Source: a virus (lineage: Duplodnaviria; Heunggongvirae; Uroviricota; Caudoviricetes). From it: a stretch of DNA of 17,858 nucleotides. The stretch lies in IMG/VR virus record IMGVR_UViG_2778261693_000003. The stretch is one strand, 5' to 3'. Each line of letters begins with the position of its first letter. Position 1 is the stretch's first letter. Of the stretch, positions 7,966 to 8,449 are shown piece by piece. Under the pieces are notes generated by a model. The model was not told the origin of the DNA and ran no database searches. It worked only from the letters and a program-made list of their open reading frames with translations. The translations under genes and the position numbers were made by a program.

Positions 7966-8247
7966 TCACCGTTCCTTAAAGGCGCCGTTTAACATACCGA
8001 TTGCCAGACTTAAATGAGTCGGTGTGAATCCCATCAGCGTTACCGTTTCGCGGTGCTTCTTCAGTACGCTACGGCAAATGTCATCGACGTTTTTATCCGG
8101 AAACTGCTGTCTGGCTTTTTTGATTTCAGAATTAGCCTGACGGGCAATGCTGCGAAGGGCGTTTTCCTGCTGAGGTGTCACTGAACAAGCCCCATGTCGG
8201 CAAGCATAAGCACACAGAATATGAAGCCCGCTGCCAGAAAAATGCAT
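7966..8247 (-). CDS. Hypothetical small prophage protein (start uncertain: ATG at 8247 or GTG at 8181)
   Basis: ORF in the leftward operon. The GTG at 8181 overlaps the stop of the small ORF 8178-8261 (GTGA), suggesting a 71-aa product. The N-terminal 22 residues of the long form are Cys/His-rich and may not be coding. Confidence 0.45.
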   Translation of the reverse strand: MHFSGSGLHILCAYACRHGACSVTPQQENALRSIARQANSEIKKARQQFPDKNVDDICRSVLKKHRETVTLMGFTPTHLSLAIGMLNGAFKER

Positions 8248-8261
8248 TCAGTGGTTGTCAT
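8178..8261 (-). CDS. Candidate 27-aa hydrophobic peptide (MTTTECIFLAAGFIFCVLMLADMGLVQ), not in the supplied ORF track
   Basis: Its ATG overlaps the stop of the orf63-like gene (ATGA at 8258-8261) and its TGA overlaps the GTG of the next ORF (8178-8181). Predicted single transmembrane helix. Weak RBS. Confidence 0.2.
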   Translation of the reverse strand: MTTTECIFLAAGFIFCVLMLADMGLVQ

Positions 8262-8449
8262 ACCTGGTCTCTCTCATCTGCTTCTGCTTTCGCCACCATC
8301 ATTTCCAGCTTTTGTGAAAGGGATGCGGCTAACGTATGAAATTCTTCGTCTGTTTCTACTGGTATTGGCACAAACCTGACTCCAATTTGAGCAAGGTTAT
8401 GTGCCATCTCAATACTCGTTCTTAACTCAACAGGAGATGCTTTGTGCAT
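8258..8449 (-). CDS. Small prophage protein resembling lambda orf63, 63 aa
   Basis: GGGAGG sits 4 nt upstream of the ATG. Size and 28-nt overlap with the upstream ORF mirror the lambda exo-orf60a-orf63 arrangement (from memory). Confidence 0.65.
   Translation of the reverse strand: MHKASPVELRTSIEMAHNLAQIGVRFVPIPVETDEEFHTLAASLSQKLEMMVAKAEADERDQV

What the first reader, a model, noticed from the sequence alone, without database searches (positions are those of the whole stretch)
7966..8449. Chain of start/stop-overlapping small ORFs including an unannotated 27-aa hydrophobic peptide
Left of the orf63-like gene, three reading frames are linked by overlapping stop/start codons: the orf63-like stop with the ATG of a 27-aa ORF (ATGA at 8258-8261), and that ORF's stop with a GTG (GTGA at 8178-8181) starting a 71-aa protein. 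The 27-aa product (MTTTECIFLAAGFIFCVLMLADMGLVQ) is one predicted transmembrane helix and is too short for the supplied ORF track. Small membrane peptides in phage early operons are often toxins or division inhibitors. A terminator follows at 7919-7943.
Basis: seen in the sequence. Interest (0 to 1): 0.45.

Follow-up and report, generated by a model that had tools for sequence, protein, structure and literature searches.

The report
Overlooked 27-codon gene in lambdoid phages
Between two small early genes of a lambda-like prophage lies a 27-codon reading frame for a very hydrophobic peptide that evolves like a real gene, sits hidden under the mis-drawn 'orf61' of phage lambda, and appears never to have been studied.

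Summary
On the minus strand, orf63 (8258-8449), a 27-codon ORF (8178-8261) and the 71-aa Orf61 (7966-8181) are joined by ATGA and GTGA stop/start overlaps. A terminator hairpin follows at 7927-7945. The block is about 97% identical to phage lambda and occurs in 3252 of 5426 complete E. coli genomes.

In 319 related loci, substitutions in the 27-codon ORF fit purifying selection in its own frame: omega about 0.39, p=0.009. All common polymorphisms are synonymous there. The competing 93-aa 'orf61' frame shows no constraint (omega about 1.0). Mosaic junctions fall at the small ORF's start and just inside orf61's start.

In 38 loci a methyltransferase gene replaces orf63. It keeps the ATGA overlap and gives the small ORF a strong Shine-Dalgarno. 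In 19 loci the ORF is absent, and Orf61 starts at the 71-aa methionine with its own Shine-Dalgarno.

So the ORF is most likely a real, translationally coupled micro-gene for a hydrophobic, probably membrane-embedded peptide. Lambda's annotated orf61 is a frame artefact that contains it, so published orf61 deletions also removed it. Translation, membrane location and function remain untested. The toxin or division-inhibitor idea has no support yet.

The parts
8422..8610 (-). orf60a homologue (DUF1317). The lambda-type start ATG at 8604-8602 overlaps the exo TGA (ATGA at 8601-8604).
   Evidence: PF07026, E=2.5e-38
8258..8449 (-). orf63 homologue (DUF1382), with a strong Shine-Dalgarno (GGGAGG, -10.3 kcal/mol).
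8258..8261 (-). ATGA overlap: orf63 stop and the start of the 27-aa ORF.
   Evidence: The same ATGA overlap is kept where a methyltransferase gene replaces orf63.
8178..8261 (-). 27-codon ORF encoding MTTTECIFLAAGFIFCVLMLADMGLVQ, the proposed hydrophobic micro-protein gene.
   Evidence: Codon-level selection in its own frame. Intact in 319 of 340 related loci. Peptide present in databases as a hypothetical protein.
8178..8181 (-). GTGA overlap: stop of the 27-aa ORF and the GTG start of orf61. Most relatives have ATGA here; the A/G change is synonymous (CAA/CAG) in the 27-aa frame.
7966..8181 (-). orf61, 71-aa form: a folded helical protein of unknown function with a weak Shine-Dalgarno of its own.
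   Evidence: PGAP call in the identical RefSeq record. Homologues start at this Met with their own SD where the small ORF is absent. AF2 pLDDT is 76-92 over this part. SD energy -3.9 to -4.7 kcal/mol.
8182..8247 (-). N-terminal extension of the alternative 93-aa 'orf61' reading (frame B, MHFSGSGLHILCAYACRHGACS). Judged not to be a selected coding frame.
   Evidence: omega about 1.0, and the common polymorphisms lying within it are nonsynonymous in it. pLDDT 45-59. Weakest initiation context.
8116..8121 (-). A6 run inside orf61. Lambda has A7 here, which frameshifts and truncates its Orf61.
   Evidence: alignment A1, column 351; lambda orf61 translation
7874..7969 (-). 31-aa ORF whose GTG overlaps the orf61 TGA (GTGA at 7966-7969). 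It runs through the terminator hairpin and shows no selection signal.
   Evidence: omega 0.74, p=0.28
7927..7945 (-). Intrinsic-terminator-like hairpin followed by a T-run; 't2' of Bloch et al. 2014.
   Evidence: PMC4195576
7646..7867 (-). orf73 (TraR/DksA zinc-finger protein), the next gene after the terminator. Included for context.
   Evidence: PMC9239242

Best explanation
The 27-codon ORF is a genuine protein-coding gene of the lambdoid exo-xis block, read on the pL (minus-strand) transcript.

Proposed mechanism: ribosomes finishing orf63 at ATGA re-initiate on it. In a variant module they start on a strong Shine-Dalgarno instead. They make a 27-residue, very hydrophobic, acidic peptide that most likely sits in the inner membrane. 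On terminating at A/GTGA they re-initiate on orf61, whose own ribosome-binding site is weak and whose start is GTG in this window. The ORF would therefore be both a micro-protein gene and the translational bridge from orf63 to orf61.

Consequences for annotation: the true Orf61 is the 71-aa protein. The 93-aa (Stx phage) and 61-aa (lambda) 'orf61' annotations read the small ORF out of frame.

Shown here: the anatomy, the frame-specific purifying selection, the module boundaries and the start of Orf61.

Inferred, not shown: translation, coupling, membrane insertion, and any effect on host or phage.
For: 1. Frame-specific selection. In 319 loci with 36 nucleotide haplotypes there are 15 synonymous and 16 nonsynonymous segregating changes in the 27-aa frame, against an expected synonymous fraction of 0.27. 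That gives p=0.009 and omega about 0.39. The other two sense frames give omega 1.0 and 1.7.
2. Polymorphism frequencies. All six common polymorphisms are synonymous in this frame. Those lying in the 93-aa frame are nonsynonymous there (G7R, T20A, M23V).
3. De-duplicated test. On 164 distinct 700-nt haplotypes, synonymous variants are more frequent than nonsynonymous ones (Mann-Whitney p=0.003). Among variants at 5% frequency or more, 5 are synonymous and 0 nonsynonymous (Fisher p=0.018). The peptide is identical in 136 of 164.
4. Controls on the same loci: orf73 omega 0.42, orf61 0.54, orf63 0.66, orf60a 0.70. The neighbouring 31-aa ORF gives 0.74 and is not significant.
5. Core substitutions. 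Those seen more than once keep hydrophobicity: F8L, A10V, G12V, A21S.
6. Modularity. In 38 loci a 185-aa N6-adenine methyltransferase gene replaces orf63. Homology starts exactly at the small ORF's ATG, the ATGA overlap is kept, and a GGGAGG-N5 Shine-Dalgarno (-10.3 kcal/mol) precedes the ATG.
7. Loci without the ORF. In 19 loci a 250-aa gene replaces orf63 and the small ORF. There orf61 begins at the 71-aa Met with its own GAGG Shine-Dalgarno and no N-terminal extension.
8. Initiation contexts. Where the small ORF is present, orf61's SD is weak (-3.9 to -4.7 kcal/mol). The frame-B ATG has the poorest context.
9. Structure prediction. AF2 of the 93-aa form gives pLDDT 45-59 for residues 1-20 and 76-92 for residues 21-90 (means of 10-residue blocks), with helices from residue 25. 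This agrees with PMC8614690.
10. No RNA explanation. There is no Rfam match, and the mRNA is less structured than shuffled sequences.
Against: 1. There is no direct evidence of translation. I could not read Liu et al. 2013, the lambda ribosome-profiling paper. A review citing it names only a 7-aa and a 31-aa extra peptide in this region.
2. The relatives are only 1-6% diverged, so the statistics rest on 31 segregating changes. Some singletons from low-coverage metagenome contigs may be sequencing errors.
3. The family is confined to Escherichia lambdoid phages. There are no distant homologues on which to test conservation.
4. The ORF is dispensable in some lineages: 19 loci lack it, and Escherichia sp. 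E1V33 has a 14-nt deletion that fuses its ATG to frame B.
5. As a membrane helix the peptide is marginal. It has a 16-residue core, an Asp at position 22 and no positive flanking charges.
6. An antisense ORF shares the same wobble register and shows a weaker signal (omega 0.50).
Confidence: 0.7

Rival explanations
1. Coupling spacer only. The ORF is translated, or merely tolerated, as a device that carries ribosomes from orf63 to orf61. The peptide itself has no function.
For: Overlapping ATGA/GTGA at both ends and a weak SD for orf61. The ORF is missing where orf61 has its own SD. The peptide has no charged flanks and no homologues.
Against: A pure spacer should not show amino-acid-level constraint. 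Here omega is about 0.39, similar to orf73, and every common polymorphism is silent. The 31-aa ORF downstream is chained in the same way and shows no such signal.
Confidence: 0.13
2. The annotated long Orf61 (93 aa from ATG 8247, as in 933W L0070 and phi24B vb_24B_7c) is the real product, and the 27-aa ORF is a chance out-of-frame ORF.
For: This is the standard annotation, and PHROG 303 models the long form. Frame B is open in all haplotypes. E1V33 encodes a 93-aa frame-B ORF behind a good SD.
Against: Frame B has omega about 1.0, with the common polymorphisms lying within it nonsynonymous. Its ATG has no usable SD. The extension is low-confidence in AF2. Homologues without the small ORF start at the 71-aa Met. 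A 22-codon open alternative frame is expected by chance about one time in three. The E1V33 ORF is best explained as a 14-nt deletion within the small ORF. PGAP itself now calls the 71-aa form.
Confidence: 0.07
3. Dual coding: both the 27-aa frame and the 93-aa frame are translated and functional.
For: Both frames are open everywhere, and neither is experimentally excluded.
Against: Only one frame shows constraint. Ribosomes translating frame A would occlude the SD-less frame-B ATG 14 nt downstream.
Confidence: 0.05
4. The constraint comes from an antisense gene on the plus strand (61-aa ORF, 8194-8379) that shares wobble positions with the 27-aa frame.
For: Antisense frame 1 gives 12 synonymous and 19 nonsynonymous changes (omega 0.50, p=0.049). 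The six common polymorphisms are also silent in it.
Against: Four variants silent in the sense frame are nonsynonymous in the antisense frame. One of them destroys its ATG in 6 loci, and one haplotype has a stop. No variant shows the reverse pattern. No promoter-like site occurs on either strand of 7600-8700, and I saw no Shine-Dalgarno-like sequence upstream of its ATG on reading the sequence. Its C-terminal half changes completely in the methyltransferase-type loci.
Confidence: 0.02

Closest known systems
Lambda orf61 / 933W L0070 / phi24B vb_24B_7c (exo-xis region; PHROG 26061 and PHROG 303)
   Same: It is the same DNA. Lambda's annotated orf61 (30839-31024) wholly contains the small ORF (30925-31008). 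The 93-aa Stx-phage version covers it from its 15th nucleotide.
   Different: Those annotations read the segment in another frame. The evidence here favours a separate 27-aa gene followed by a 71-aa Orf61. Lambda's Orf61 is additionally truncated by an A7 frameshift. That truncation was noted in PMC8614690, but the small ORF was not.
Small single-pass inner-membrane proteins of E. coli (for example YohP at 27 aa, KdpF, AcrZ, MgtS; from my own knowledge)
   Same: Similar size. One dominant hydrophobic segment. Missed by gene finders because of its length.
   Different: No sequence relationship. The hydrophobic core is shorter (16 residues), there is an internal Asp, and no Lys or Arg to set topology. 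It is phage-borne and expressed from pL. Membrane location is untested.
Type I toxin peptides (Hok, TisB, Ibs, Ldr, ShoB; from my own knowledge)
   Same: A short hydrophobic peptide encoded on a mobile element.
   Different: No antisense promoter or RNA signal. It is embedded in a polycistronic operon by stop/start overlaps rather than being a stand-alone, tightly repressed cassette. It lacks the basic residues that, to my knowledge, type I toxins typically carry.
Phage early-operon host-takeover peptides such as lambda Kil and Qin DicB (division inhibitors; from my own knowledge)
   Same: A small product of the early leftward operon of a lambdoid phage. The exo-xis region is reported to affect the host cell cycle and the lysis-lysogeny choice (PMC9239242, PMC6213356).
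   Different: No homology. No phenotype has been assigned to this ORF.
Translational coupling through 4-nt stop/start overlaps (ATGA), common in phage operons
   Same: ATGA/GTGA at both ends. The same device joins bet-exo and exo-orf60a in this window. The downstream gene has a weak SD.
   Different: Here the coupled element is itself a 27-codon ORF under amino-acid constraint. Coupling has not been measured.

Membership tests
Protein-coding gene (generic criteria) | Excess of synonymous over nonsynonymous change in its own frame and not in the alternative frames | tested here: met
   Frame A: 15 synonymous, 16 nonsynonymous, expected synonymous fraction 0.27, p=0.009, omega 0.39. Frames B and C: omega 1.0 and 1.7. 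Frequency tests: p=0.003 and p=0.018. Antisense alternative weighed.
Protein-coding gene (generic criteria) | Evidence of translation (ribosome footprints, peptide, or fusion) | not testable with these tools
   Liu et al. 2013 is not held. No paper text contains the peptide sequence.
Single-pass small membrane protein | Hydrophobic segment long enough to span the bilayer (about 18-21 residues) | tested here: inconclusive
   The core CIFLAAGFIFCVLMLA has 16 residues; the best 15-residue window within it has mean Kyte-Doolittle hydropathy 2.87. The 21-residue span C6-V26 contains D22. The unweighted Hessa-scale sum for 19 residues is +0.3. There is no Lys or Arg.
Single-pass small membrane protein | Membrane localisation | not testable with these tools
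   Needs fractionation or PhoA/GFP fusions.
Type I toxin-antitoxin toxin | Cis-encoded antisense RNA or own promoter and tight translational repression | tested here: not met
   No promoter-like site on either strand of 7600-8700. No Rfam match. No stable mRNA structure (z=+1.57).
Type I toxin-antitoxin toxin | Toxicity on expression | not testable with these tools
   Requires an induction experiment.
Translationally coupled gene pair | Stop of the upstream gene overlaps or abuts the start of the downstream gene | tested here: met
   ATGA at 8258-8261 and GTGA at 8178-8181. The ATGA is conserved with a different upstream gene.
Translationally coupled gene pair | Downstream gene depends on upstream translation (weak own RBS) | tested here: inconclusive
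   The orf61 SD is -3.9 to -4.7 kcal/mol, against -5.6 where the small ORF is absent and -10.3 for orf63. Functional dependence was not measured.
ZapA (name given by PGAP to Orf61) | Match to Pfam PF05164 above the gathering score | tested here: not met
   16.1 bits against a cut-off of 23.8, E=0.014. No NCBIfam hit. No Foldseek PDB hit with E below 1.
Lambda exo-xis conserved block (orf60a-orf63-orf61-orf73) | Gene order and near-identity to lambda and Stx phages | tested here: met
   95-99% identity to 180 phage records. Annotations. Pfam DUF1317, DUF1382 and zf-dskA_traR.

The most novel reading that the evidence does not exclude
The 27-residue peptide is a functional early product of lambda and Stx phages that acts in the host inner membrane. 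It would be responsible for part or all of the phenotypes published for 'orf61' deletions and frameshifts: more lysogeny, delayed induction and, in phi24B, poorer adsorption. In lambda the true Orf61 is already truncated and only the small ORF is intact, so lambda would carry a functional gene that its annotation has missed.
Probability: 0.2. Interest if true: 0.65.

Novelty: new member of a known kind. Interest (0 to 1): 0.5.

Why it matters
Lambda and the Shiga-toxin phages are reference systems, and the exo-xis block is under active study for its influence on prophage induction and toxin release.

If the small ORF is real, three things follow:
1. The annotated orf61 of lambda (61 aa) and of Stx phages (93 aa) is wrong at its 5' end. 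The real Orf61 is 71 aa.
2. Proteins cloned from those annotations for two-hybrid screens, overexpression and modelling carried an out-of-frame N-terminus.
3. The published orf61 deletions also removed an independent, conserved micro-gene, so their phenotypes need re-assignment.

The block sits in about 60% of complete E. coli genomes, so the peptide would be one of the commonest unrecognised prophage products in that species.

Tried and rejected
- **Programmed frameshift fusing the small ORF to orf61.** The frames differ by -1, but there is no slippery heptamer, and CAG-to-UCA re-pairing is impossible. The only fused proteins in databases are rare stop-loss plus indel variants (P0033).
- **RNA element.** No Rfam hit. 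The fold is weaker than shuffled sequences.
- **Antisense gene.** Weaker signal, and its start codon is lost in 6 loci.
- **E1V33 as proof of the 93-aa frame.** A gapped alignment shows a 14-nt deletion inside the small ORF relative to the methyltransferase-type junction.
- **Distant homologues.**
  - Genome scan: apart from hits that look like lambda DNA contamination (or other stray contigs) in unrelated assemblies, the genome hits were Escherichia.
  - tblastn of the peptide against 50,697 phage records: only near-identical copies.
  - Big protein search: refuses queries under 40 aa.
  - Family libraries: Pfam, PHROGs and NCBIfam gave nothing for the peptide.
- **Function of Orf61.** ZapA is below threshold, and Foldseek against the PDB gave no hit.
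- **Reading Liu et al. 2013** for direct ribosome-footprint evidence: not held.
- **Structure prediction of the peptide:** not possible, because the minimum length is 30 aa.

Full report
**What is in the window.**
The minus strand of 7600-10100 carries the leftward early operon of a lambdoid prophage. In order it holds bet (9278-10063), exo (8601-9281), orf60a (8422-8610, DUF1317) and orf63 (8258-8449, DUF1382). A 27-codon ORF (8178-8261) and a 71-codon ORF starting with GTG (7966-8181) follow. After these come a terminator-like hairpin (7927-7945) and the TraR-like orf73 (7646-7867).

The ATG of the 27-codon ORF overlaps the orf63 TGA (ATGA, 8258-8261). Its own TGA overlaps the GTG of the 71-codon ORF (GTGA, 8178-8181).

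The same device links bet to exo, and exo to the lambda-type start of orf60a. It also links the 71-codon ORF to a further 31-codon ORF (7874-7969) that runs through the terminator.

A competing 93-codon ORF (7966-8247) reads most of the 27-codon segment in another frame. I call the 27-codon frame A and this competing frame B.

**Where it comes from.**
The segment is 95-99% identical to 180 phage records, including lambda, 434 and many Stx phages. It is 100% identical to the chromosome of E. coli CFSAN061771. It matches 3252 of 5426 complete E. coli genomes.

It is the conserved core of the 'exo-xis region' studied by the Wegrzyn and Donaldson groups.

No phage record I opened annotates the 27-codon ORF. 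Current RefSeq leaves a 76-nt gap there and calls the 71-aa form of orf61. Stx-phage records call the 93-aa frame-B form. Lambda's 'orf61' (30839-31024) is frame B extended upstream into orf63 and cut short downstream.

The exact 27-aa peptide does exist in sequence databases as an unnamed hypothetical protein (UniRef A0A0A2SGE8_ECOLX, 981 contigs). No searchable paper contains its sequence.

**Which frame is under selection.**
I collected 340 related loci from viral contigs, metagenomes and genomes. They were anchored on a conserved 21-mer inside orf61, so the sample is blind to the small ORF. Of these, 319 carry the small ORF intact, in 36 nucleotide haplotypes.

| Frame or control ORF | Synonymous / nonsynonymous | omega | p |
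|---|---|---|---|
| Frame A (27 aa) | 15 / 16 | 0.39 | 0.009 |
| Frame B (93 aa) | 7 / 17 | 1.0 | not significant |
| Third sense frame | 6 / 26 | 1.7 | not significant |
| orf73 | 40 / 47 | 0.42 | 7e-5 |
| orf61 (71 aa) | 25 / 38 | 0.54 | 0.014 |
| orf63 | 17 / 28 | 0.66 | 0.12 |
| orf60a | 25 / 47 | 0.70 | 0.10 |
| 31-codon ORF | 10 / 17 | 0.74 | 0.28 |

The first three rows are and the controls. The expected synonymous fraction in frame A, given the observed transition/transversion mix, is 0.27.

All six common polymorphisms (16-103 loci each) are silent in frame A. The three that lie inside frame B change its amino acids.

After collapsing to 164 distinct 700-nt haplotypes, synonymous variants are still far more frequent than nonsynonymous ones (Mann-Whitney p=0.003). 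Among variants at 5% frequency or more, 5 are synonymous and 0 are nonsynonymous (Fisher p=0.018). The peptide is identical in 136 of 164 haplotypes. The core replacements seen more than once keep hydrophobicity: F8L, A10V, G12V and A21S.

So the small ORF is constrained at least as strongly as its accepted neighbours. The 31-codon ORF, which is chained in the same way, is not.

**An antisense ORF cannot explain the pattern.**
A plus-strand ORF (8194-8379) shares wobble positions with frame A and shows a weaker signal (omega 0.50). However, four variants that are silent in frame A change the antisense protein, and one of them removes its ATG in six loci. No variant shows the reverse pattern. 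The ORF also lacks a promoter-like site.

**Mosaic boundaries.**
In 38 loci orf63 is replaced by a 185-aa phage N6-adenine methyltransferase gene. Homology to the window begins exactly at the small ORF's ATG. The methyltransferase TGA again overlaps that ATG. A GGGAGG-N5 Shine-Dalgarno (-10.3 kcal/mol) precedes it.

In 19 loci a 250-aa gene replaces both orf63 and the small ORF. The junction lies within the first seven codons of orf61. There orf61 is a 71-aa protein (MTIEHNN...) with its own GAGG Shine-Dalgarno and no N-terminal extension.

The small ORF therefore behaves as a discrete unit. The 71-aa methionine is the conserved start of Orf61.

AlphaFold2 on the 93-aa form gives pLDDT 45-59 for residues 1-20. 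It gives 76-92 for residues 21-90 (means of 10-residue blocks), with helices from residue 25. This matches Donaldson's report that residues 1-23 do not model consistently (PMC8614690).

**Apparent counter-examples.**
Escherichia sp. E1V33 has a 93-aa frame-B ORF behind a good Shine-Dalgarno and no ATG for frame A. A gapped alignment shows it is the methyltransferase-type junction (GGAGGCNGCATGACAA) with a 14-nt deletion inside the small ORF. That is a loss, not an ancestral state. Two of the three remaining substitutions are silent in frame A and none are silent in frame B.

Other disruptions are an IS66 insertion, a 1-nt deletion in a metagenome contig of 1.3x coverage, and a rare stop-loss fusion. 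The gene is thus dispensable in some lineages, as accessory phage genes often are.

**How it most likely works.**
orf63 has a strong Shine-Dalgarno. The small ORF has a moderate one in the orf63 context (-5.6 kcal/mol). orf61 has a weak one (-3.9 to -4.7 kcal/mol) and a GTG start in this window. The frame-B ATG has essentially none.

The simplest reading is serial termination and re-initiation: orf63, then the 27-aa ORF, then orf61. This step is inferred.

The product has a 16-residue uninterrupted hydrophobic core (CIFLAAGFIFCVLMLA) within a 21-residue apolar span that contains one Asp. It has two acidic residues and no basic ones. It is therefore probably membrane-embedded, but it is a marginal transmembrane helix with no topology signal. 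This is also inferred.

What it does there is unknown. No family library recognises it. There is no sign of a type I toxin arrangement.

**Consequences for the literature.**
Lambda has an extra A in the run at window 8116-8121. Its true Orf61 is therefore cut to 29 residues while the small ORF is intact.

The published 'orf61' deletions in lambda and phi24B replaced the annotated ORF. That ORF contains all of the small ORF in lambda, and all but the first 14 nt in the 93-aa version (PMC6213356; coordinates). Their phenotypes cannot be assigned to Orf61 alone.

A review reports that ribosome profiling found two extra peptides here, of 7 and 31 aa. The 31-aa one probably corresponds to 7874-7969. 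I could not read the primary paper to check whether the 27-aa ORF was also seen.

**Verdict.**
The 27-codon ORF is most likely (about 0.7) a real, overlooked micro-gene and a translational bridge in one of the best-studied phage regions.

It is a new member of a known kind: a small hydrophobic phage or bacterial protein. Translation, membrane location and function are untested. The toxin or division-inhibitor idea remains speculation.

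Noticed in passing
window 8116-8121 (A6 run); lambda J02459 30839-31024: Lambda carries A7 where this window and the non-lambda relatives I examined carry A6. Lambda's Orf61 is therefore frameshifted to a 29-residue stub. Its annotated 61-aa 'orf61' is an out-of-frame read of the orf63 3' end plus the small ORF, joined to that stub.
   Followed up: yes
window 7874-7969 (-): A 31-aa ORF whose GTG (ATG in lambda) overlaps the orf61 stop and which runs through the terminator hairpin. It shows no selection signal (omega 0.74). 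It is probably the 31-aa 'orf2313' that a review attributes to lambda ribosome profiling, but I could not verify this.
   Followed up: partly
L090 1420-1510 (Escherichia sp. E1V33): A 14-nt deletion inside the small ORF fuses its ATG and Shine-Dalgarno to the orf61 frame, producing a 93-aa ORF. The upstream gene is a 355-aa protein with a DGQHR motif, which suggests a DndB-like protein, instead of orf63.
   Followed up: yes
L007 867-1424 and 37 similar loci: A phage N6-adenine methyltransferase gene replaces orf63. The recombination junction lies exactly at the ATGA shared with the small ORF. The last 12 nt (GGAGGCNGCATGA) are also shared with the unrelated upstream gene in E1V33, so they look like a portable ribosome-binding junction.
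   Followed up: partly
L091-L104 (genome-contig hits): Assemblies labelled Shewanella, Pseudomonas, Bradyrhizobium, Kitasatospora, Oceanobacillus and others hold this sequence with a lambda-length, 1-nt-longer match. Some sit on contigs of about 48.4-48.5 kb. This is almost certainly lambda DNA contamination of those assemblies.
   Followed up: no
window 8194-8379 (+): A 61-aa antisense ORF shares wobble positions with the small ORF and so mimics part of its selection signal. It was rejected because variants destroy its start or introduce a stop, and there is no promoter-like site.
   Followed up: yes
window 8518-8540 (-): A second terminator-like hairpin inside orf60a, just upstream of the orf60a/orf63 overlap. 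It is the 't1' predicted by Bloch et al. 2014. Its effect on expression of orf63 and the small ORF is unknown.
   Followed up: no
window 15832-15981 (+): A 49-aa, very hydrophobic ORF (MSLVLCFLLMSLFFMYSFMLSRLWRKK...) lying between larger ORFs downstream of the replication-gene-sized ORFs. It has the lowest Hessa-scale score of all small ORFs in the window.
   Followed up: no
window 7966-8181 (-): PGAP names some Orf61 homologues 'cell division protein ZapA'. The Pfam ZapA match is below threshold (16 bits against 23.8), and the predicted fold has no PDB neighbour with E below 1. The name looks unsupported.
   Followed up: yes
window 572-5424: The prophage integrase (5696-6859) abuts host genes for a fimbrial usher, a fimbrial protein and a LuxR-type response regulator. 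The attachment site and prophage end therefore lie near 5450-5700.
   Followed up: no
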